Shown: positions 46,804 through 55,838 of the stretch, one piece after another | How the letters are laid out: the number at the start of each line of letters is the position of its first letter | Position numbering within the stretch: the stretch's first letter is position 1 | Origin: a phage | Direction: 5' to 3' (one strand) | DNA: 64,000 nucleotides | Sequence record: PZ495249.1 | The notes under the pieces: model-generated | The model's database searches: none | Told to the model about the DNA's origin: nothing | The model's input: the letters and a program-made list of their open reading frames with translations, nothing else | Made by a program: the position numbers and the translations under genes

Positions 46804-48897
46804 TTATCTGCGACGAGTAGACCAAGGCTGAGCGAAGGAAGCCCTTGAACTGTTTTGCAGTTTTCCGTATCCGGTGGTTGCTCCCATCGGTGTAGGAATG
46901 GCTACAGCTTTGAATACTTGCTCTTTTGACAATGTGTTGAAGCATGATGCCGCAGCATCGGGAATATCGTCTTTAAGCGTTGCGGTAGAACGTTCCCCGT
47001 TGAACGATTCGAGTTCTTTGTAAAAGTGATCCAAAGTCTCTTTGTTCGGGAATGATTCTTCAACGATGTAAACGAAACCATTCTGACATGCACTACTGAA
47101 CGGCATGAAACGCTGGAGCTTCTTCTTGTTACCAGGCATTGCGTCCGGCTTAACAATGAATCCCTCTGCGATCAATTTCTTCGCTGACTCGGTGTATTCA
47201 ATTAAACCTGCACCAGATGGATCTTTCGGTAACACTACCGTCACTTCATCACCATCAATTTTACATTGCTGGAGAATCAGATTATCACGATCACCTGGTA
47301 GGCGACGGAATCGACCAAAGATCTTGCTGTCTTTATCCTTAGCGTCATAATCATAATCACCAAAGATATAAATATTCCCGTCCGAGTCTTTCGCCATCTT
47401 AACAGATGTTGTATAGTCAGGGTAACGATAAGATTCAGTTGGAACAGAAACAGCCTTATCCCATGCTCGCATGTATTTCAGGTTGTTTGGCAGATCTGCA
47501 AACTTGATTACGTTCAGCCATTCGCGCTGGAAGAAACTCTCTTCTTGCGCACGAGCAAACCAGCAACCATCCAGAAGCTGTGCTCTCTTAACCGCAGTCT
47601 GAGATTTCAGAGCAGCAAGATATTTAGGGTTGAGGCGAATCAATTCAGGGTTATCGAAGATTGTACCACCGATGAACACGAAACTCTGTGGTTCAATGTC
47701 AACCATCTCTCCGGTGTTTGGGTTGATGATTTGACAGTTGTCAGGATACTTCTCTTTGAGTTCTTCTGCTGTCTCAGCAAATACTGGTTCATCTTGAACG
47801 ATGATGAAGTAAAGCTGCTTACCGCACATATCTTCACGAGGGAATCCCGCTTCATCCAGATATGGCAACACCCAATTCAATACCCAACTATCTGCATCAG
47901 GGTTACAGGTGCAAAGCATGAATGACGTTTCAGATTCAGAACGAAGACGACCAAGCAGGTATAGGAATTCATACTGTGTGAAGTGTGTCAATTCGTCGAA
48001 ACCAATCATAGAATACTGTGTACCCTGATGGTTAGTCTCTGCTGTTACGTTATCATTCTCTAAGTGGTCAAACTTGAGCGTACCACCTTTCGTTGCTCTG
48101 AATTCCATCTCCATTGCCTGTTCACGAACGTGCGGGCGTAGTGGAGAATATAGTTTCTTAGCCTCAGAGAACAAGCCCCCTGGTTTACGGTGAGCAGTGG
48201 TATTCTTACGGAATAAGATTCCCCCGAAGAGAGGATCTTTGTATGCGTATTTAAGCGCCTTTAAAAGCAGTAGGCGAGACTTACCGCTATTGCCAGTAAC
48301 GAAGATGTGATCGCCACGTCTAAAGACAACATAGCTACTTGGAGTTTCAAAACAGTATTTCTTATCATCGGTTGTCATTACCTCGTGAATTTTCAGGTGA
48401 GTGCTTGGCTTACCTTGAATGTTAAACGGTACACGCTTTCCAAACGGGTTTTCAATATATCCTCTGAGAGGATGCCCTGCTTGTTGTAACGCGATCAGAT
48501 CCCCAACAAGGATCTCGAAATGCTTCTTGGATTTCTTCTTCTTGTAGAATACAAATCGGTGTTCCATACTCAATTCTTGGAATACACCAACACCATTCGT
48601 AATACGATGTAAGTTGTCACTTGTTTCATGTTCTACGAAATACGGTGAAGTTAGTTCAAGACGTTTATTACGAGGATTGTATTGATAAATATCCTCTCCT
48701 GAATATCCGCTGATTGGCTTCCAGCCATCCACTGTCAGATATTCTGTTTCTGCACTGACACATCCCGCAGCCCCACCGTAAATCATTAGCTCCGGCATTA
48801 AATCCATCGCCAGTGTTTGTTTACCTGGTTGTGCTTTTACTTCAATGTCAGCATCTGCCAACGACATATTGGCCTTAGCTTTTGGTGTCCTTGCCAC
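46804..48897 (-). CDS. terL: terminase large subunit interrupted by a candidate mini-intein
   Basis: Walker A split as YGGAAG / SGKS by a 158-codon insert; Walker B IGFDELTHF; CTCNP motif; GTG start after RBS aggagg. Confidence 0.75.
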   Translation of the reverse strand: MARTPKAKANMSLADADIEVKAQPGKQTLAMDLMPELMIYGGAAGCVSAETEYLTVDGWKPISGYSGEDIYQYNPRNKRLELTSPYFVEHETSDNLHRITNGVGVFQELSMEHRFVFYKKKKSKKHFEILVGDLIALQQAGHPLRGYIENPFGKRVPFNIQGKPSTHLKIHEVMTTDDKKYCFETPSSYVVFRRGDHIFVTGNSGKSRLLLLKALKYAYKDPLFGGILFRKNTTAHRKPGGLFSEAKKLYSPLRPHVREQAMEMEFRATKGGTLKFDHLENDNVTAETNHQGTQYSMIGFDELTHFTQYEFLYLLGRLRSESETSFMLCTCNPDADSWVLNWVLPYLDEAGFPREDMCGKQLYFIIVQDEPVFAETAEELKEKYPDNCQIINPNTGEMVDIEPQSFVFIGGTIFDNPELIRLNPKYLAALKSQTAVKRAQLLDGCWFARAQEESFFQREWLNVIKFADLPNNLKYMRAWDKAVSVPTESYRYPDYTTSVKMAKDSDGNIYIFGDYDYDAKDKDSKIFGRFRRLPGDRDNLILQQCKIDGDEVTVVLPKDPSGAGLIEYTESAKKLIAEGFIVKPDAMPGNKKKLQRFMPFSSACQNGFVYIVEESFPNKETLDHFYKELESFNGERSTATLKDDIPDAAASCFNTLSKEQVFKAVAIPTPMGATTGYGKLQNSSRASFAQPWSTRRR
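48289..48762 (-). mobile_element. candidate mini-intein (Hint domain, no endonuclease domain) in the terminase P-loop
   Basis: Begins with Cys (CVSAETEYLTVDGW), ends with Asn followed by Ser; 158 aa; removal restores GGAAGSGKS. Confidence 0.55.
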
Positions 48898-50449: not shown

Positions 50450-50524
50450 TGGTTGTAGCAGATGGAATCGAACCATCATCAATCGGTTATCAGCCGAACG
50501 TATTAGCCGTTATACTATGCCACA
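50450..50524 (-). tRNA. tRNA-Ile (anticodon GAT)
   Basis: 7 bp acceptor with encoded CCA, loop CTGATAA, T arm GATGG-TTCGATT-CCATC; hand-folded. Confidence 0.55.
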
Positions 50525-50530
50525 ATTGTT

Positions 50531-50613
50531 TGGCATCCAGGTGAGGAATCTAACCCCTTGAAACTGGTTTTGGAGGCCAGCAACGGGAACACCCATTTTT
50601 AATCTACCCAGAT
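50531..50613 (-). tRNA. tRNA-like element, possibly Trp (CCA) with aberrant D region
   Basis: Acceptor pairs with two G/U wobbles; loop CTCCAAA; T loop TTAGATT lacks C56; D region about 7 nt too long. Confidence 0.25.
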
Positions 50614-50619
50614 ATTGTT

Positions 50620-50695
50620 TGGAGGCGGGAGCCGGAATCGAACCGACCTGCGACAAGCATATGAAACTTGTGAGTTCCCAGAACTCTATCCCGCA
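50620..50695 (-). tRNA. tRNA-Met (anticodon CAT) with U1/C72 mismatch
   Basis: Loop TTCATAT, T arm GTCGG-TTCGATT-CCGGC, CCA encoded. Confidence 0.5.
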
Positions 50696-50776
50696 CTTTT
50701 GGTTGATAGTAAGAGAATCAAACTCTTCTCACAACGCCGTATGAAAGCGTCCGAAACATCAGCTTCACACTATCAA

Positions 50777-51040
50777 TTAAACACGATGGATTATTTTAAC
50801 TGTCTCACCCTTATCATTCATAAGGTAGGCACTTTCATTCCTATGAATAAAGTCCGTAGAGTTGCCACTAATGACACTTGCAATAACACCATCCAGCTTA
50901 TCATAACCTTCAAAATGATATTGGATGTGTATATTTCCATCAAGTTCTATATAATGTTCTTCTTCATCTACCTCGTAAGGTACTGAGTCATAAATTTTTG
51001 TCCCTTTGGGGAACTTGCGAACTATTTTCAATGTATACAT
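50777..51040 (-). CDS. hypothetical protein inside the tRNA array
   Basis: 87 aa; RBS gaaggaaa. Confidence 0.4.
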   Translation of the reverse strand: MYTLKIVRKFPKGTKIYDSVPYEVDEEEHYIELDGNIHIQYHFEGYDKLDGVIASVISGNSTDFIHRNESAYLMNDKGETVKIIHRV

Positions 51041-51124
51041 AGTATTTCCTTCGTAGTGTTTATATTAGTAATATGCCGTCCCAAGCCGAACGGCGATTAG
51101 TGTTTTAGCTTGGCATTGATAATA

Positions 51125-51199
51125 TGGTACTTCCTGGAGGAATCGAACCACCGACGCTCACCTTGTAAGGATGACGTTCTACCATTGAACTAAGGAAGT
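51125..51199 (-). tRNA. tRNA-Val (anticodon TAC)
   Basis: D arm GTTC-AATGGTA-GAAC, loop CTTACAA, T loop TTCGATT. Confidence 0.6.
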
Positions 51200-51272
51200 A
51201 TGGCGGGGATTTTCCGCACTGTCTATCGCGATATGGACTCGGACAGTGTTCTCGGCTAAATACCCCATTGTT

Positions 51273-51359
51273 TGGTACATCAGGTCAGACTCGAACTGAC
51301 ACGCCCTCACGAGCACTGGAACCTAAATCCAGGGCGTCTACCAATTTCGCCACTGATGC
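51273..51359 (-). tRNA. tRNA-Leu (anticodon TAG), long variable arm
   Basis: Loop TTTAGGT, 15 nt variable arm, T loop TTCGAGT. Confidence 0.6.
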
Positions 51360-51367
51360 ATTTAATT

Positions 51368-51444
51368 TGGTGGAGAAGTGGAGAATCGAACTCCATACTC
51401 GAAGGTGCAAACCTCGTGTTTTAACCGAATATTACTACATCCCC
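51368..51444 (-). tRNA. tRNA-Ala (anticodon TGC)
   Basis: Loop TTTGCAC; G3/U70 wobble in the acceptor stem (Ala identity element); T arm TGGAG-TTCGATT-CTCCA. Confidence 0.6.
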
Positions 51445-51506
51445 AATTTGTATACACTACACAGAAGATAGGTCTGATTGCCTCGGCAGTTGCCGTAGTG
51501 TTTATC

Positions 51507-51582
51507 TGGTACGGATGGAAGGAGTCGAACCTCCGACGCAGGGCTTCGTAGACCCTCGTTCTATCCACTGAACTACACCCGT
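51507..51582 (-). tRNA. tRNA-Arg (anticodon ACG)
   Basis: D arm GTTC-AGTGGATA-GAAC, loop CTACGAA, T arm GGAGG-TTCGACT-CCTTC. Confidence 0.7.
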
Positions 51583-51588
51583 ATTGTT

Positions 51589-51663
51589 TGGTGCAGAGTG
51601 TTGGTAACGATCCAACCTGTGTGGCTTTTCAGACCACCACTAATCCATCTCAGTTAACTCTGC
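51589..51663 (-). tRNA. tRNA-Phe (anticodon GAA)
   Basis: Loop CTGAAAA; T loop ATCGTTA (A54/U58 covariation). Confidence 0.6.
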
Positions 51664-51669
51664 ATAATC

Positions 51670-51745
51670 TGGTCAGTGAGAGAGGACTCGAACCTCCAAC
51701 AGCTACGCCCCAAACGTAACACTCTACCACTTGAGCTACTCACTG
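51670..51745 (-). tRNA. tRNA-Pro (anticodon TGG)
   Basis: C1-G72 first pair typical of bacterial tRNA-Pro; loop TTTGGGG. Confidence 0.6.
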
Positions 51746-51752
51746 ATAAATC

Positions 51753-51827
51753 TGGCTACAGGTCTTGGGATCGAACCAAGTCATACGGTGGTCAAAGCAC
51801 CGTGCCTTCCCATTTGGCTACCCTGTA
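51753..51827 (-). tRNA. tRNA-Gln (anticodon TTG)
   Basis: U1-A72 and 3 bp D stem GCC/GGC as in E. coli tRNA-Gln; loop CTTTGAC. Confidence 0.6.
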
Positions 51828-51834
51828 ATTAAAT

Positions 51835-51922
51835 TGGTATCGTGGACGAGATTCGAACTCGCAAGGGATTACTCCCGCCAGATTGAAAGTCTGGTTACTT
51901 AGGCCGTTTTGTATACCACGAT
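51835..51922 (-). tRNA. long-variable-arm (type II) tRNA with anticodon loop CTTTCAA (anticodon TTC); isotype ambiguous
   Basis: Perfect acceptor ATCGTGG/CCACGAT, anticodon stem CCAGA/TCTGG, 15 nt variable arm with GGGA-GTAA-TCCC stem, T arm GCGAG-TTCGAAT-CTCGT. Confidence 0.45.
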
Positions 51923-52025
51923 ATAAAATTTCTTAAAGAGAACTGCTGAAAGTTGAAGGAGAAAACCATGAGCGAAAAGAGAAAAGGTTTCCAGCAGTTC
52001 CATTTAAAAAATCTCGTAGGGTTGT

Positions 52026-52104
52026 TGGCGCGGGTGACAGGATTCGAACCTGCGACGAACTGGGTGGAAGCCAGACACTCTACCAAACTGAGTTACACAC
52101 GCGC
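52026..52104 (-). tRNA. tRNA-Gly (anticodon TCC)
   Basis: Loop CTTCCAC, T arm GCAGG-TTCGAAT-CCTGT; D region slightly long. Confidence 0.5.
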
Positions 52105-52170
52105 TGATTAACAACTCTATAATACTACTCTACTACATTTTAGCCCTCGTTGTCAAGGGCTTTTGACAAA

Positions 52171-52497
52171 TTATTTCAGAAGTTTTTCCAAACCTTGCTT
52201 CATCGCATACTCTATGAAGAAGTTTAGTTCACCGATTAACTCTGGTTCCCACTGGTCTTCCAAGCCATAACATGAACAATGTCCACCATGAACTTCATAA
52301 AACTTATTGTCACGCTTATCGTAGAAGTAAACATCGGATGATCCAGTGTAGCACTCATACGTATAATCTGCGTACAGGATGATAATATCATCTTCTGTTA
52401 GATCAACATGATAATCACTCATCACTTGATCGAAGTCTGAAAAGTCGTTATCATACACGTCAACATGCAGATACTTTTCTAATTCTTGTTTATCCAT
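52171..52497 (-). CDS. hypothetical acidic protein inside the tRNA array
   Basis: 108 aa; strong RBS aagaggaggaaac; HGGHCSCYG motif. Confidence 0.5.
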   Translation of the reverse strand: MDKQELEKYLHVDVYDNDFSDFDQVMSDYHVDLTEDDIIILYADYTYECYTGSSDVYFYDKRDNKFYEVHGGHCSCYGLEDQWEPELIGELNFFIEYAMKQGLEKLLK

Positions 52498-52737
52498 GTT
52501 TCCTCCTCTTTAGAATATGTGGGGCAGTGACGGATACCCCTTTGGGTGACAAACCCTACGTTCGGAAGCTCGGTCAGACTGACACAAAACACGAAGTCAA
52601 ATGTCCTTCCTCCCTGCTGTCGATTGGAGAGAGCCGATCCCCTCTGAACTTCATTTAAGCGCGATACCACTTAGGGCTGTCTAACACTTTCCTGAACTTA
52701 CCAATCCACCTAATCCCAGTCACGGTTTCGGATTTTC

Positions 52738-52813
52738 TGGTGCTCCCACACTGAATCGAACAGTGATTTGCGGGTTACAAAGCCGCAGTAATAGGCCATT
52801 ATACGATAGGAGC
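52738..52813 (-). tRNA. tRNA-Thr (anticodon TGT)
   Basis: T arm CACTG-TTCGATT-CAGTG, loop TTTGTAA closed by a C/C mismatch. Confidence 0.55.
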
Positions 52814-52819
52814 AAATTT

Positions 52820-52895
52820 TGGCGGGCAATATTGGATTCGAACCAATTACCATTCGGTTAACAGCCGACCGCACATCCGTATGTGCTTATCACCC
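52820..52895 (-). tRNA. tRNA-Asn (anticodon GTT)
   Basis: Loop CTGTTAA, T arm ATTGG-TTCGAAT-CCAAT, acceptor with two G/U pairs. Confidence 0.55.
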
Positions 52896-52973
52896 ATGTT
52901 CTTCGTTAAGAGTAGGCGCGTTTCATCAGTCGCCTCGTGTTATTTTCTCCTGTTTCCAGGCTCCCTTTAGTGC

Positions 52974-53096
52974 TCGCGAGGGAGGGATTCGAACCACTCA
53001 CCTCTGCCAGAGCCAACCAGATCTTTCGGGTAATTACTCCGTCCAACCATTTGATTAACCTGCTGGCAGCGTCCATCGCCCTTAGACTGCCTCGCG
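52974..53096 (-). ncRNA. tRNA-like element, 123 nt, perfect 7 bp acceptor but weak T stem (pseudo-tRNA or tRNA with insertion)
   Basis: Acceptor CGCGAGG/CCTCGCG, T loop TTCGAAT present, about 35 nt more than a type II tRNA. Confidence 0.2.
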
Positions 53097-53136
53097 TCTG
53101 TCAATTCAGATGCCACTAAAGCTCTCTCAACTAATT

Positions 53137-53220
53137 TGGTGTGGGTAGATGGATTCGAACCACCGCGCCTTTCGGATCAGATTTACAGTCTGGTGCATTC
53201 AGCCACTCTGCCATACCCAC
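53137..53220 (-). tRNA. tRNA-Tyr (anticodon GTA), long variable arm
   Basis: Loop CTGTAAA, T arm GGTGG-TTCGAAT-CCATC, CCA encoded. Confidence 0.7.
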
Positions 53221-53226
53221 ATTGTT

Positions 53227-53303
53227 TGGTGCGCCGGAAAGGATTCGAACCTTTAGTCCTCTCATTAAAAGTGAGATGCCTTATCCAGTTTAGCTACCGA
53301 CGC
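53227..53303 (-). tRNA. tRNA-Lys (anticodon TTT)
   Basis: D arm GCTA-AACTGGATAA, loop CTTTTAA, T arm AAAGG-TTCGAAT-CCTTT. Confidence 0.7.
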
Positions 53304-53443
53304 ATAAATTTTCTTTAGGATAGGAAGTGTGGGGCACTTCACTATTTATATCGGTGATGGTTGCCGCCATCTGCCGAAAGTTTACTCTATCTAAGTAAGA
53401 GTCGAAACGCTACACGAATAGTATTTCTATCATAAAGAAAACT

Positions 53444-53529
53444 TGGCGGAAGAGGGGAGGGTTGAACTCCCACGCCCTTTCGGACGGCAGTTTAGCAAAC
53501 TGCTATGGCTACCATTTCATCACTCTTCC
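53444..53529 (-). tRNA. tRNA-Ser (anticodon GCT), long variable arm
   Basis: Loop TTGCTAA, 14 nt variable arm, T arm GGGAG-TTCAACC-CTCCC. Confidence 0.65.
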
Positions 53530-53537
53530 ATTTTGTT

Positions 53538-53614
53538 TGGCAGTCGCGACGGGTTACGATCCCGCATTCTCTCCCGTGACAGGGGAGTACCATTACCAAG
53601 CCAGCCCCGCGACT
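53538..53614 (-). tRNA. tRNA-Asp (anticodon GTC)
   Basis: Anticodon arm CTCCC-CTGTCAC-GGGAG; T loop ATCGTAA. Confidence 0.65.
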
Positions 53615-53621
53615 ATTAATT

Positions 53622-53711
53622 TGGAGGAAGATAATGGAGTCGAACCATCACCGTATCACTACAATGGGCCAGGGTTCAAATCTGGTTGCGTACCACTACG
53701 CCCTATCTTCC
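53622..53711 (-). tRNA. tRNA-Ser (anticodon TGA), long variable arm
   Basis: Acceptor GGAAGAT/ATCTTCC, loop TTTGAAC, long variable arm. Confidence 0.55.
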
Positions 53712-53775
53712 AATCTATACTTCTTAGTCTATCATACTTTTCAATCGGTTGTCAATAGCTTTTTGAAAATTATTT

Positions 53776-53853
53776 TGGTCGGGGAGATAGGACTCGAACC
53801 TACATTTCCTCCATTACGCTATACGGCTTAGAAGACCGCCACGGTACACCCCG
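53776..53853 (-). tRNA. tRNA-like element, possibly Arg (TCT), with aberrant D region
   Basis: T arm GTAGG-TTCGAGT-CCTAT and arm GCGGT-CTTCTAA-GCCGT present, but no canonical D arm and 19 nt between anticodon and T arms. Confidence 0.3.
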
Positions 53854-53881
53854 ATCTCTTAGTGCTGACTATAACATAACT

Positions 53882-54052
53882 TATTCGTTACTGTCAAGCT
53901 CTTTTTTAATTTCTTTTCTTGCTTTCTGACGTTCAGTGGCTTTACACACTTCCTGCCAAGATTCGTACTCGTCACCTTTACGGTAGCCACGGCTACGACA
54001 AAGGGAGCAGAGACAACCTTCTTGACGATATTTCAAACCATGAGGTTTCATA
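53882..54052 (-). CDS. hypothetical small Cys-rich protein (not in ORF track, 56 aa)
   Basis: ATG after strong RBS aaggaggatatATG; MKPHGLKYRQEGCLCSLCRSRGYRKGDEYESWQEVCK. Confidence 0.4.
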
Positions 54053-54064
54053 TATCCTCCTTAA

Positions 54065-54139
54065 TTGGTGAGCATTACCAGATTCGAACTGGTGTCTTTC
54101 GGGTTTAGAATCCTACGCTTTACCGCTAAGCTAAATGCC
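54065..54139 (-). tRNA. tRNA with anticodon CTA (candidate amber suppressor); low-confidence fold
   Basis: Acceptor GGGCATT/AATGCTC, D arm GCTT-AGCGGTA-AAGC, T arm ACCAG-TTCGAAT-CTGGT, loop TTCTAAA; anticodon stem has two mismatches. Confidence 0.35.
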
Positions 54140-54371
54140 CTTCGTAAATGTCACGACTATCAGGATCGTGATACAATTCTGCAATTTCTTTACTTAAAGT
54201 AGCTCTCAGTATAATCCCTTTGTGCGAAACAATCAAGTAGATTTTCGTTTCACTTACATCTCCAGGGGCTAAGAGTTTACCTCTTACAATCCGCAAACGT
54301 TCTGCTGAATACCCTTCTTCGAGATCAGCCAACATATCTGCCAACGATTTAGAGAAAGTTAACCGATGCAA
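54126..54371 (-). CDS. hypothetical protein (TTG start, weak)
   Basis: 81 aa ORF with weak RBS; 3' end overlaps the CTA tRNA. Confidence 0.25.
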   Translation of the reverse strand: MHRLTFSKSLADMLADLEEGYSAERLRIVRGKLLAPGDVSETKIYLIVSHKGIILRATLSKEIAELYHDPDSRDIYEGHLA

Positions 54372-55459
54372 GGTATTACTTTCACGGTTTACAATTCCCC
54401 AGATACGATCATCCAGTTTGCAACTTCCTGACTCACAATTAGTCTATGACATTTTCGTTCTCCTGTTTGTTAATAAAACATATAAAGAAGGACAATGATC
54501 AGGTGACGTTTGCCAACGCCCTGCCGAAGTTCCGAAGATTGCAAGTCTTCGCTTGAACCGCATTTCATCAGGAGTAACGTATGATCAGTACGTTTTTCCG
54601 AAATGCTCACACCCCACGGTGCTGACAGTTTTAACACCAATCAATGCCTTTCTTTATATGTTCTGTCGATGGTGGAGGACGGTACGGGATTTTAACCCGT
54701 CTAAACTGGTTTGCAATCAGCCACATAGACACTCTGACAACCGTCCCATCGAAAAGCCAGTCTGTTCCTGGCTGTCACCACAGTTTTAACATTCTGTGGC
54801 TTGAACGTAGGAGCTATTCGATGCTGGCATTCTCCCGTAGCTCTGCCTTTATAGGGGTATGAACCCGTAGGGCGCACCTTATTGTTCCGTTCAAGGGATC
54901 ATGTTGAATGTTAACCTCTGCTTTTCCTTTAGGTTATTCGGAGAGGTACAACGATTGGGTTAGCGAAGCCCAAACACCTCCAGAGCAAACAACAATCTCC
55001 AAAACTGGTGTGACTGGTGGGGCATGATCCCACATCATCTCCTTCACAGGGAGGAACGTTAACCAGCTTACGCTCACAGTCACCATTGTTTGTAGTGTCT
55101 CCAAGGCTTCCTATTCCATCCTAAGATGATCCACCCCTTCAACTAACGCGCTACATCCCTACGAAGAATGAACGTCATTCTCATCGTCTGAAATCTTGTT
55201 CAGAGCATACCACTGCGGAGATTAACCCGCTTCTCATCCTACGTGGTCGGTAGTAGTTGTCAATCAAACAACTCGTAAAATATATTCTCGTAAGAACACA
55301 TATTGCGAGAGTTTGGCACCAGGAGGAGGAGTCGAACACTCCTAATCAGGTCATGACTCCTGACTATCTCAAACCAAACACTGTTGTGTCGGCTATTGCA
55401 TAACAGCGAGCGCTCACTCCTATGCAGACCTTCACCAGTGTCGAGATCCTGGTATTGTT

Positions 55460-55550
55460 TGGTACGGGTGACGAGATTCGAACTCGTAAGATCATCAAAG
55501 ACCTGGGGGATTTTAAGTCCCATGTGTACTGCCAATACCACCACACCCGC
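55460..55550 (-). tRNA. tRNA-Leu (anticodon TAA), long variable arm
   Basis: Anticodon arm GGGA-CTTAAAA-TCCC as in E. coli Leu-UAA; T arm ACGAG-TTCGAAT-CTCGT; 91 nt. Confidence 0.7.
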
Positions 55551-55558
55551 TTTATTTA

Positions 55559-55741
55559 TTATCGACGAAGAATATCAATCACTTCGCCAAGCAACGCACT
55601 GTACGCCGCATCTTCGAGAATATCCTTCTGGAGTTCACTGTCAATCCCTGTTACGCTCTCGACAGTATCTGTTACCGGAGATACAACATCACGAGCAACG
55701 CTGGTAACATCATCAAGCACTTCACCGATAAATCCGAACAT
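55559..55741 (-). CDS. hypothetical small acidic protein
   Basis: Start set at ATG 55741 after RBS aaagaggagaa. Confidence 0.4.
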   Translation of the reverse strand: MFGFIGEVLDDVTSVARDVVSPVTDTVESVTGIDSELQKDILEDAAYSALLGEVIDILRR

Positions 55742-55760
55742 AATATTCTCCTCTTTAAGT

Positions 55761-55838
55761 TGGTGGTTCCACCTGGTTTCGAACCTGGACACTCTCGGTT
55801 ATGAGCCGAGTGCTCTGACCTACTTGAGCTATGGAACC
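55761..55838 (-). tRNA. tRNA with anticodon CAT (elongator Met or Ile2)
   Basis: Perfect acceptor GGTTCCA/TGGAACC, anticodon arm CTCGG-CTCATAA-CCGAG, T loop TTCGAAA. Confidence 0.6.

What the first reader, a model, noticed from the sequence alone, without database searches (positions are those of the whole stretch)
54440..55310. ORF-poor 0.85 kb stretch with hairpins inside the tRNA array
No minus-strand ORF of 60 aa or more and no canonical tRNA lies here, in an otherwise densely packed genome, and the plus-strand ORFs look random. Hairpins such as ACGGG-ATTTTAA-CCCGT and CGAAGA-TTGCAAG-TCTTCG and a 143-nt tRNA-like element at 55313..55455 suggest degenerate tRNA genes or one or more structured non-coding RNAs.
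Basis: seen in the sequence. Interest (0 to 1): 0.45.

Follow-up and report, generated by a model that had tools for sequence, protein, structure and literature searches.

The report
Undescribed structured RNA in phage tRNA array

Summary
The stretch is ORF-poor and its hairpins are real, but it is not tRNA-free. It contains tRNA-His(GUG) at 55006-55083 and tRNA-Cys(GCA) at 54673-54746, both on the minus strand.

The second hairpin belongs to a ~195-nt structured RNA ("RNA-1", 54470-54666, minus). It has a long closing helix and four inner hairpins, with a folding z-score of -5.7. In 14 distinct homologs, 94% of pair cells are paired and 53 of 71 pairs show compensatory changes. Rfam 15 has no match.

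Every copy found lies inside a phage tRNA array on the tRNA strand. Hosts are Stephanstirmvirinae, Vequintavirinae (PVP-SE1) and N4-like Ithacavirus. GenBank leaves the region blank or calls it "hypothetical protein".

The adjacent 143-nt element (55313-55455) is a tRNA derivative with an encoded CCA end and a hairpin inserted in its D loop. Its architecture matches T4 RNA C.

The rest of the stretch (54747-55005 and 55084-55312) is lineage-specific spacer without an overall structure signal.

Most likely RNA-1 is a stable RNA released by tRNA processing; its function is unknown.

The parts
54470..54666 (-). RNA-1: a ~195-nt structured RNA. Closing helix P1 has up to 28 pairs; P2 leads into a junction carrying hairpins P3, P4 and P5; hairpin P6 sits between P2 and P1.
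   Evidence: MFE z = -5.7. RNAalifold on a MAFFT alignment of 6 sequences gives 64 pairs, 17 of them compensatory. The covariance model scores 219.7 bits on the minus strand and 27 bits on the plus strand. In 14 homologs, 94.2% of cells are paired against 38-46% in slid controls, and 53 of 71 pairs are compensatory against 10-16. No Rfam match. No conserved ORF.
54673..54746 (-). tRNA-Cys(GCA) with an encoded CCA and a non-canonical T loop (UUAAAAU).
   Evidence: Rfam tRNA 42.1 bits. ARAGORN with the -ps option. Annotated as tRNA-Cys in phi1_175008, KP2025 and KP13-26.
54747..55005 (-). Spacer between tRNA-His and tRNA-Cys, including a 246-bp block (54756-55001) that is absent from all isolate relatives. 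Two hairpins lie at its 3' end; one covaries.
   Evidence: His and Cys are about 10 bp apart in relatives. The block is present in metagenome loci L069 (92% identity, full length) and L110 (partial). A 2-nt indel in L110 breaks the only ORF. MFE z = -0.27. No Rfam hit.
55006..55083 (-). tRNA-His(GUG) with G-1, an encoded CCA and a non-canonical T loop (AUCAUGC).
   Evidence: ARAGORN default settings. Rfam 44.6 bits. 94-96% identical to relatives.
55084..55264 (-). Variable spacer with a sigma-70-like promoter match (TTGACA-16-TAGGAT, 55263..55236) that could drive His, Cys and RNA-1.
   Evidence: Shared only with L069, at 96% identity. MFE z = -0.70 for 55084-55312 as a whole. Promoter scan. 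The promoter role is inferred.
55265..55312 (-). Conserved 48-nt block that follows tRNA-Leu or RNA-2 in all Klebsiella-type relatives. It forms an AU-rich hairpin followed by a U-run and may be a weak terminator or a processing site.
   Evidence: Alignment A1. Fold. The function is inferred.
55313..55455 (-). RNA-2: a 143-nt tRNA-derived RNA. It has a 7-bp acceptor stem followed by G and CCA, a T arm, a strictly invariant anticodon-like hairpin (UCAGG-AGUCAUGA-CCUGA, 8-nt loop), and a ~55-nt hairpin inserted in the D loop.
   Evidence: MFE z = -4.3. Clean presence/absence indel flanked by CCAAAC. RNAalifold on 6 sequences gives 50 pairs, 12 compensatory. Its covariance model also picks up dozens of ordinary tRNAs at 12-24 bits. 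Same architecture as T4 rnaC.
55460..55550 (-). tRNA-Leu(UAA), lying 4 nt upstream of RNA-2.
54126..54452 (-). Gene immediately downstream of RNA-1. It has a Shine-Dalgarno sequence, then ATG TCA TAG with an in-frame amber at codon 3, then 105 conserved codons. Its 3' end overlaps the suppressor tRNA.
   Evidence: Context only; it is not part of RNA-1.
54066..54140 (-). tRNA with a CUA anticodon (amber suppressor; ARAGORN labels it 'tRNA-Pyl').
   Evidence: Rfam 60.2 bits.

Best explanation
The stretch is a continuation of the phage's minus-strand tRNA operon, not a gap in it.

Read 5' to 3' on the minus strand it contains:
- a promoter-like site;
- tRNA-His;
- a lineage-specific ~250-nt spacer;
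- tRNA-Cys;
- 8 nt later, RNA-1, a ~195-nt RNA gene.

RNA-1 folds into a long helix that pairs its own 5' and 3' ends. That helix encloses a compact multi-helix core with invariant junction nucleotides: UUAAAAC, GCAC..GUGUGA, and the loops U.GC and GGC.

Shown here: the structure is under purifying selection on the minus strand only. The element is not coding. It always sits in phage tRNA arrays on the tRNA strand, next to a tRNA or within about 150 nt of one. It occurs in three unrelated phage taxa.

Inferred: RNA-1 is co-transcribed with the tRNAs and cut out by the host tRNA-processing enzymes (RNase P at the next tRNA's 5' end, RNase E and 3' exonucleases elsewhere). The closing helix protects its ends, so it accumulates as a stable trans-acting RNA. 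It probably works as the RNA part of a ribonucleoprotein that acts on tRNA or translation metabolism, or on host tRNA-targeting defences. This would make it a counterpart of T4 RNA C and RNA D, whose role is also unknown.

The neighbouring 143-nt RNA-2 is a tRNA derivative of the T4 RNA C type.
For: Structure: MFE z = -5.7. An unbiased MAFFT/RNAalifold run gives 17 compensatory pairs in 6 sequences. With a named structure, 91% of cells are paired against about 41% in slid controls. With 14 sequences the figures are 94.2% against 38-46%, and 53 of 71 compensatory pairs against 10-16. In FBKp34 and PVP-SE1 the P1 sequence is entirely different but still pairs.

Strand: 219.7 bits on the minus strand against 27 bits on the plus strand. 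Several G-U pairs are invariant.

Not coding: the longest sense-strand stop-free run is 25 aa in three homologs.

Context: every copy lies inside a tRNA array on the tRNA strand. It directly follows tRNA-Cys in the window, L110 and L129. It directly follows tRNA-Asn in L019. It follows a tRNA-like element in PVP-SE1. It directly precedes tRNA-Gly in FBKp34 and L028.

Independence from the downstream gene: the downstream neighbour differs between phages.

Distribution: Stephanstirmvirinae, Seunavirus and Ithacavirus. None of the 52 GTDB loci that match the seed pattern is a homolog, and E. coli genomes give no match.

Precedent: T4 RNAC and RNAD are small RNAs transcribed from the tRNA region with unknown roles (PMC3014915; PMC9697503).
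Against: There are no expression data, so the ends, stability and abundance of the RNA are all inferred.

No partner protein is identified. The only candidate, a DUF2828/DUF7788 protein with weak similarity to the Ro60 vWA domain, is encoded near RNA-1 in some relatives but is absent from this window.

The distance to the upstream tRNA is not constant; it is 100-150 nt in FBKp34, L028 and L062.

Alignments A5 and A6 were fitted to the model, which inflates the pair counts. The MAFFT-based results are the unbiased ones, and they rest on only 6 related sequences.
Confidence: 0.62

Rival explanations
1. RNA-1 is a cis-acting part of the tRNA precursor. It would act as a folding or processing module that orders RNase E and RNase P cleavage or protects neighbouring tRNAs, and it would be degraded afterwards rather than acting in trans.
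For: It always sits inside tRNA arrays and often abuts a tRNA end. No partner or target has been identified.
Against: A spacer needs a stable fold at most. It does not need invariant unpaired junction nucleotides and loops kept across three phage taxa. Most inter-tRNA spacers in these same arrays are 5-10 nt with no such module. Related arrays without RNA-1 exist (EmilieFrey, 4MG).
Confidence: 0.15
2. RNA-1 is a 5'-leader (riboswitch-like or protein-binding) that controls the gene downstream, here the amber-codon gene at 54452-54126.
For: RNA-1 ends about 10 nt before that gene's Shine-Dalgarno sequence in the window, KP2025 and KP13-26. Conserved junction nucleotides are typical of aptamers.
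Against: The downstream neighbour is not conserved. phi1_175008 has a 166-nt zinc-ribbon ORF there, FKP3 and Tr1 have different genes, FBKp34 and L028 have tRNA-Gly, and L019 has a spacer followed by tRNA-Arg. There is no expression platform that overlaps the ribosome-binding site.
Confidence: 0.06
3. The stretch holds degenerate tRNA genes; RNA-1 would be a decayed tRNA or tRNA pair.
For: It lies in a tRNA array. Two of its hairpin loops look like anticodon loops (CUGAUCA, CUUGCAA). Several odd tRNA-like genes lie nearby, including RNA-2, 52971-53097 and 53779-53853.
Against: There is no tRNA-clan hit on RNA-1 even at E<=10 with lax filters. ARAGORN finds nothing there at -ps80. The fold is a ~28-bp helix plus a five-helix core rather than a cloverleaf, and it is under strong purifying selection, so it is not decaying.
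Confidence: 0.05
4. It is a DNA-level element. The palindromes, including two invariant CTGATCAT motifs with GATC, would be protein-binding or replication/packaging sites, and the hairpins would be incidental inverted repeats.
For: TGATCA and TTGCAA are DNA palindromes, and they are invariant in the Klebsiella, Citrobacter and window group.
Against: The strand asymmetry argues against it: 219.7 bits against 27 bits, and invariant G-U pairs that would be A-C mismatches on the other strand. The CUGAUCA loop is absent from the PVP-SE1, FBKp34 and Ithacavirus versions although the fold is kept.
Confidence: 0.03
5. It encodes small proteins, as several GenBank records annotate the region ('hypothetical protein' in FKP3, phi1_175008 PQ360875, Tr1, GEC_vB_MG and the K54 phages).
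For: Stop-free runs of 56-62 aa exist in some homologs. Deposited annotations call CDSs there.
Against: No frame stays open in all homologs. The longest sense run is only 25 aa in KP2025, FKP3 and L110. Indels are not multiples of three, and substitutions come as paired compensatory changes.
Confidence: 0.02

Closest known systems
Bacteriophage T4 RNA C (species 1, rnaC) and RNA D (species 2, rnaD)
   Same: They are small RNAs encoded in the phage tRNA cluster on the tRNA strand, next to tRNAs, with unknown function (PMC3014915; PMC9697503). RNA-2 (143 nt) has the same architecture as rnaC (139 nt): an acceptor-like stem, a long hairpin where the D arm would be, an anticodon-like hairpin and a T arm.
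   Different: No sequence homology was detected. The RNA-2 model does not reach rnaC at E<=1. The RNA-1 models find nothing on rnaC or rnaD; only short weak matches elsewhere in the T4 locus. RNA-1 has a different fold from both (a ~28-bp terminal helix plus a multi-helix core) and no tRNA-like 3' end.
Bacterial and phage Y RNAs (YrlA) bound by Ro60/Rsr
   Same: RNA-1 shares the overall plan of a long helix formed by the 5' and 3' ends plus a multi-hairpin domain. In phi1_175008, KP2025 and KP13-26 a DUF2828/DUF7788 protein with weak similarity to the Ro60 vWA domain is encoded about 1 kb away on the same strand (criteria from PMC4201824).
   Different: There is no Rfam Y_RNA or YrlA match. 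The GNCGAAN0-1G motif is not conserved. The conserved loops are not like T or D arms. No such protein is encoded in this window, and RNA-1 occurs in phages that lack it nearby (FBKp34, FKP3).
Transfer RNA (Rfam RF00005)
   Same: tRNA-Cys and tRNA-His in the stretch are members (42.1 and 44.6 bits). RNA-2 keeps the acceptor stem, the NCCA end, the T arm and an anticodon-like arm.
   Different: RNA-1 is not a member. RNA-2 is not recognised by ARAGORN or by the Rfam tRNA model. It carries a ~55-nt insertion in the D loop and has an 8-nt anticodon loop.
Large phage-associated structured RNAs found near tRNAs (ROOL, GOLLD) and HDV-like 'theta' ribozymes next to phage suppressor tRNAs (recalled from the literature, not tested beyond Rfam)
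   Same: They are phage-encoded, sit next to tRNA genes, have conserved complex folds, and their function is unknown or processing-related.
   Different: There is no Rfam match to any of them. RNA-1 is much smaller than ROOL or GOLLD and has no HDV-like double pseudoknot.

Membership tests
tRNA (RF00005), for 54673-54746 and 55006-55083 | Cloverleaf covariance-model score above the curated gathering score (29 bits) | tested here: met
   42.1 bits (Cys) and 44.6 bits (His). ARAGORN finds His with default settings and Cys with -ps.
tRNA (RF00005), for RNA-1 (54470-54666) | Any tRNA-clan match | tested here: not met
   No tRNA-clan hit on 54470-54666 at E<=10 with lax filters. ARAGORN at -ps80 -i finds nothing there.
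Any curated RNA family (Rfam 15, 4227 models), for RNA-1 | Match at or near the gathering score | tested here: not met
   The best match is DUF2800 RNA at 15.3 bits against a gathering score of 60.2 (E = 5.8), and it covers one hairpin only. The divergent homologs L019 and L022 give no hits either.
Y RNA / YrlA | Conserved GNCGAAN0-1G Ro-binding motif near the 5' end, and stem-loops like T and D arms (PMC4201824) | tested here: not met
   The motif is absent from the conserved columns of A6. The invariant nucleotides are UUAAAAC, GCAC..GUGUGA, U.GC and GGC. There is no Rfam Y RNA hit.
Y RNA / YrlA | Encoded within 4 kb of a Ro60/TROVE ortholog on the same strand | tested here: inconclusive
   Not met in this window: tblastn with the KP2025 DUF2828 protein finds nothing. 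Met in a loose sense in phi1_175008, KP2025 and KP13-26, but there the protein matches only DUF2828 and DUF7788, with a sub-threshold vWA_Ro60 hit of 19.1 bits against a cutoff of 27.7.
T4 RNA C-type tRNA-cluster RNA, for RNA-2 | Encoded in the tRNA cluster on the tRNA strand, with a tRNA-like acceptor and T arm and a long extra hairpin | tested here: met
T4 RNA C-type tRNA-cluster RNA, for RNA-2 | Detectable sequence or profile homology to T4 rnaC | tested here: not met
   Model R3 does not report L013 1409-1547 at E<=1, although it does report T4 tRNAs. The MAFFT alignment shares only the T loop.
T4 RNA C/D-type tRNA-cluster RNA, for RNA-1 and RNA-2 | Accumulates as a stable small RNA processed from the tRNA precursor | not testable with these tools
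   This needs a Northern blot or RNA-seq of infected cells.
Cis-regulatory leader or riboswitch, for RNA-1 | Fixed position upstream of homologous genes | tested here: not met
   The downstream neighbour varies: the amber gene, a zinc-ribbon ORF, other ORFs, tRNA-Gly, or a spacer followed by tRNA-Arg.
Protein-coding gene, for RNA-1 | An open frame conserved among homologs | tested here: not met
   The longest sense-strand stop-free stretch is 25 aa in three homologs, and the frames differ between homologs.

The most novel reading that the evidence does not exclude
RNA-1 is the RNA component of a previously unrecognised phage system that acts on the host's tRNA or translation machinery. It could be a decoy or inhibitor of tRNA-targeting defence nucleases, a partner of Ro-like DUF2828 proteins, or a new ribozyme that acts on tRNA precursors. 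Two observations fit a complex tertiary fold or oligomerisation rather than a simple stable hairpin. First, its junction nucleotides are invariant. Second, in the window's group of phages two loops display self-complementary hexamers (UGAUCA, UUGCAA).
Probability: 0.15. Interest if true: 0.8.

Novelty: new variant of a known kind. Interest (0 to 1): 0.55.

Why it matters
Phage tRNA clusters have recently gained attention as counter-measures against host tRNA-cleaving defences. The small non-tRNA RNAs encoded in them, however, have had no assigned function since they were found in T4 (RNA C and RNA D).

RNA-1 is a second, structurally unrelated RNA family in the same niche, and it offers three things:
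- Clear covariation support.
- Presence in cultured phages of three taxa that infect Salmonella, Klebsiella and Citrobacter (PVP-SE1, FSL SP-058, FBKp34 and others), so it can be deleted and tested.
- A correction to current annotation, which leaves the region blank or calls it a hypothetical protein.

It also shows that default tRNA finders miss real tRNAs in these arrays, such as the tRNA-Cys with its odd T loop, and miss tRNA derivatives with large insertions.

Tried and rejected
1. Exact-pattern scan of IMG/VR with GGCATTGATTGGNGTTAAAAC returned 0 hits. I replaced it with a gapped core pattern.

2. Fetching relatives through the NAMPT protein in IMG/VR gave only one locus. The protein search of GenBank phages led to EmilieFrey and 4MG, whose tRNA regions lack RNA-1.

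3. The Y-RNA idea failed. There is no Rfam hit, no Ro-binding motif and no DUF2828/TROVE gene in the window.

4. Homology of RNA-1 or RNA-2 to T4 rnaC or rnaD was not detected. Only the architecture of RNA-2 resembles rnaC.

5. I first took the 246-bp block at 54756-55001 to be unique to this phage. That was wrong: metagenome loci L069 and L110 carry it. It has no overall structure signal, no intact ORF, no Rfam hit and no copy elsewhere in the window.

6. A second copy of RNA-1 inside the spacers was not found. An unfiltered covariance-model scan finds only a 19-bit partial match to a plain long hairpin at 51921-52016.

7. No bacterial or prophage copies were found: 0 of 52 GTDB loci that match the seed pattern, and no E. 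coli genome.

8. Literature searches found no description of this RNA. The catalogue of ~10,000 candidate viral structured RNAs (PMC10690425) could contain it, but its supplementary data are not held.

Full report
**Setting.** The window comes from a large myovirus related to the Stephanstirmvirinae. Its terminase and portal genes are only about 79% identical to the nearest isolates. All genes around the finding are on the minus strand.
- ARAGORN finds 23 tRNA genes between 50450 and 55838.
- The nearest GenBank relatives for this locus are Klebsiella phages phi1_175008, KP2025, KP13-26, FKP3, FBKp34 and KP13-16, and Citrobacter phage Tr1, at 77-90% identity.
- An IMG/VR contig (L010) and metagenome contigs (L069, L110, L129, L147) are closer.

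**Checking the observation.** The stretch 54440-55310 has no minus-strand ORF of 60 aa or more, and the quoted hairpins exist. It is not free of tRNAs.
- ARAGORN with default settings calls tRNA-His(GUG) at 55006-55083; Rfam scores it 44.6 bits.
- Rfam finds tRNA-Cys(GCA) at 54676-54746 with 42.1 bits, above the gathering score of 29.
- ARAGORN recovers tRNA-Cys at 54673-54746 with a relaxed threshold, and relatives annotate it as tRNA-Cys.
- The first hairpin (ACGGG-ATTTTAA-CCCGT) is the T arm of this tRNA-Cys. Its loop UUAAAAU is non-canonical, which may explain why the default run missed it.

**The structured RNA (RNA-1).** When the minus strand between tRNA-Cys and the next gene is aligned with relatives, invariant blocks alternate with blocks that change in a paired way.
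- The segment 54465-54675 folds at -69.9 kcal/mol, with z = -5.7 and 0 of 200 shuffles as good.
- RNAalifold on a plain MAFFT alignment of six sequences predicts 64 pairs, 17 with compensatory changes.
- For the structure I named, 91.4% of pair cells are standard pairs against about 41% when partners are slid. 21 pairs have changes on both sides against 1-6.
- A covariance model scores the window at 219.7 bits on the minus strand and 27 bits on the plus strand. It also found divergent copies that BLAST had missed, in FBKp34 and KP13-16 (53-54 bits).
- A gapped core pattern scanned over IMG/VR, metagenomes and GTDB genomes, followed by model searches, added Salmonella-phage and metagenomic copies. 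None of the 52 GTDB loci that match the seed pattern was a homolog.
- With 14 distinct sequences, 94.2% of cells pair (38-46% slid) and 53 of 71 pairs show compensatory change (10-16 slid). That alignment was fitted to the model, so the six-sequence MAFFT result is the unbiased figure.

**Fold of RNA-1**.
- Closing helix P1 has up to 28 pairs. It is completely different in sequence in the FBKp34 and PVP-SE1 type, yet still paired.
- A conserved single-stranded UUAAAAC follows P1.
- Helix P2 leads into a junction with three hairpins. P3 is GCAC(N)-loop-(N)GUGU followed by GA. P4 varies in length.
- Hairpin P6, with a GGCA or GGCG loop, lies between P2 and P1.

**RNA-1 is not coding and not a known family.** In three homologs the longest sense-strand stop-free run is 25 aa. 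Rfam 15 has no match for the window copy or for two divergent copies.

**Context and distribution of RNA-1.** Every copy lies inside a tRNA array on the tRNA strand.
- It starts 8 nt after the CCA of tRNA-Cys in the window, and directly after tRNA-Cys in L110 and L129.
- It directly follows tRNA-Asn in L019, which is Salmonella phage FSL SP-058.
- It follows a 105-nt tRNA-like element in PVP-SE1.
- It directly precedes tRNA-Gly in FBKp34 and L028.
- What follows RNA-1 differs between phages, so it is not a leader for one fixed gene.
- BLAST with the three sequence types shows carriers in Stephanstirmvirinae (Klebsiella, Citrobacter), Vequintavirinae/Seunavirus (Salmonella PVP-SE1 and relatives) and Schitoviridae/Ithacavirus (Salmonella FSL SP-058, SP-076, TR2). 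The region is unannotated or labelled 'hypothetical protein' in these records.
- It is absent from the tRNA regions of EmilieFrey, 4MG and T4 and from complete E. coli genomes.

**The 143-nt element (RNA-2, 55313-55455).**
- It is a clean presence/absence insertion next to tRNA-Leu, flanked by CCAAAC.
- It has a 7-bp acceptor stem followed by G and CCA, and a T arm. That arm is fully canonical in the divergent L147 and L069 version (GGAGG-UUCGAAU-CCUUC).
- It has a strictly invariant hairpin UCAGG-AGUCAUGA-CCUGA and a ~55-nt hairpin inserted in the D loop.
- RNAalifold on a MAFFT alignment gives 12 compensatory pairs out of 50.
- Its covariance model also picks up dozens of ordinary tRNAs at 12-24 bits, which shows it derives from a tRNA. 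The model does not pick up T4 rnaC.
- T4 rnaC (139 nt) has the same architecture. T4 RNAC and RNAD remain of unknown function (PMC3014915; PMC9697503).

**The rest of the stretch.**
- In all isolate relatives and in L010, tRNA-His and tRNA-Cys are about 10 bp apart. The window has 259 nt there, 54747-55005. The block is shared with L069 (92% identity) and partly with L110.
- This block shows no global structure signal (z = -0.27). A 2-nt indel breaks its only ORF, and it has no Rfam hit. One hairpin near its 3' end does covary among the three copies.
- For 55084-55312 as a whole z = -0.70. The variable part (about 55092-55264) is shared only with L069. It carries a sigma-70-like promoter match at 55263-55236.
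- The 48-nt block at 55265-55312 is conserved in all Klebsiella-type relatives. It may be a weak terminator or a processing site.

**Mechanism.** The following steps are shown:
- a selected minus-strand RNA fold;
- non-coding status;
- obligate residence in phage tRNA operons;
- spread across three phage taxa.

The following steps are inferred:
- co-transcription with the tRNAs;
- excision by RNase P, RNase E and exonucleases;
- stabilisation by the terminal helix;
- action in trans, probably as part of a ribonucleoprotein linked to tRNA metabolism or to defence evasion.

Rival readings are scored lower, for the reasons given under each: processing spacer, leader of the downstream gene, decayed tRNAs, DNA site, small proteins.

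**Comparison with known systems.** The closest known kind is the T4 RNA C/RNA D class of RNAs encoded in tRNA clusters. RNA-2 resembles RNA C in architecture but shows no detectable homology to it. RNA-1 shares only the genomic niche. The Y-RNA/YrlA comparison fails on the motif, on Rfam, and on the absence of a Ro-like gene in this window (PMC4201824).

**Verdict.** The main result is an apparently undescribed, well-supported structured RNA family in phage tRNA arrays, with function unknown.

Noticed in passing
window 54126-54452 (-) and 54066-54140 (-): The gene just downstream of RNA-1 starts with a Shine-Dalgarno sequence and ATG TCA TAG. It continues in frame for 105 codons whose differences from relatives are almost all synonymous. 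The amber at codon 3 is conserved in 8 distinct phages. The gene's 3' end overlaps the phage's own CUA-anticodon (amber suppressor) tRNA. This looks like a suppressor-dependent gene. The tRNA's anticodon stem appears, by hand parsing, to have two mismatches.
   Followed up: partly
window 53779-53853 (-): Rfam calls a tRNA here (33.7 bits) that ARAGORN misses with default settings. Relaxed ARAGORN calls it tRNA-Tyr with an 'intron'. It has an acceptor stem, a T arm and an encoded CCA, but an odd anticodon region. A strong sigma-70-like promoter match lies just upstream (53897-53868).
   Followed up: partly
window 52971-53097 (-); also L010 17458-17584: The RNA-2 model weakly matches (about 12-13 bits) a ~127-nt tRNA-like element in the gap between tRNA-Tyr and tRNA-Asn. 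It has the acceptor stem CGCGAGG/CCUCGCG and a GGUUCGAAUCC T loop.
   Followed up: partly
window 51921-52016 (-): A long, nearly perfect hairpin lies between tRNA-Gly and tRNA-Glu (MFE z = -5.0). It is the only other weak hit of the RNA-1 model in the window, and only the stem matches.
   Followed up: partly
window 54676-54746 and 55006-55083: Both tRNAs in the stretch have non-canonical T loops: UUAAAAU in tRNA-Cys and AUCAUGC in tRNA-His, instead of UUCRANY.
   Followed up: no
window 54578-54584, 54539-54545 and about 55351-55358 (minus strand): Three hairpin loops display self-complementary hexamers: UGAUCA (RNA-1 P4), UUGCAA (RNA-1 P5) and UCAUGA (RNA-2 anticodon-like loop). CUGAUCAU also recurs in the 3' strand of P1. 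This could allow loop-loop dimerisation, but the P4 motif is missing from the PVP-SE1, FBKp34 and Ithacavirus versions.
   Followed up: partly
L147 1459-1569 (also L069); L010 12584-12658; L022 5994-6079; L062 4505-4594: Relatives carry further odd tRNA-like genes. One is a ~105-nt element with three extra hairpins and a CCA end, between tRNA-Leu and RNA-2. Others are genes ARAGORN reports with 2- or 4-base 'anticodons' (ga, ggca, gtac).
   Followed up: no
L002 1-1103 / L009 484-1914 (KP2025); also phi1_175008 and KP13-26: A 476-aa protein is encoded next to tRNA-Arg, about 1 kb from RNA-1 on the same strand. It matches DUF2828 and DUF7788, with a weak sub-threshold hit to the Ro60 vWA domain. 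The window phage lacks it near its array: that segment is replaced by about 150 nt (53713-53863), and tblastn finds nothing in the 64-kb window.
   Followed up: partly
GenBank records PP895363, PQ360875, OR515479, MW006477, PQ569687-92: CDSs annotated as 'hypothetical protein' overlap RNA-1 homologs. These are probably mis-annotations of a non-coding RNA.
   Followed up: partly
window 46804-48897 versus 50450-55838; L022; L062; L006: In several carrier lineages the tRNA array that holds RNA-1 lies within a few kb of the large terminase gene.
   Followed up: no
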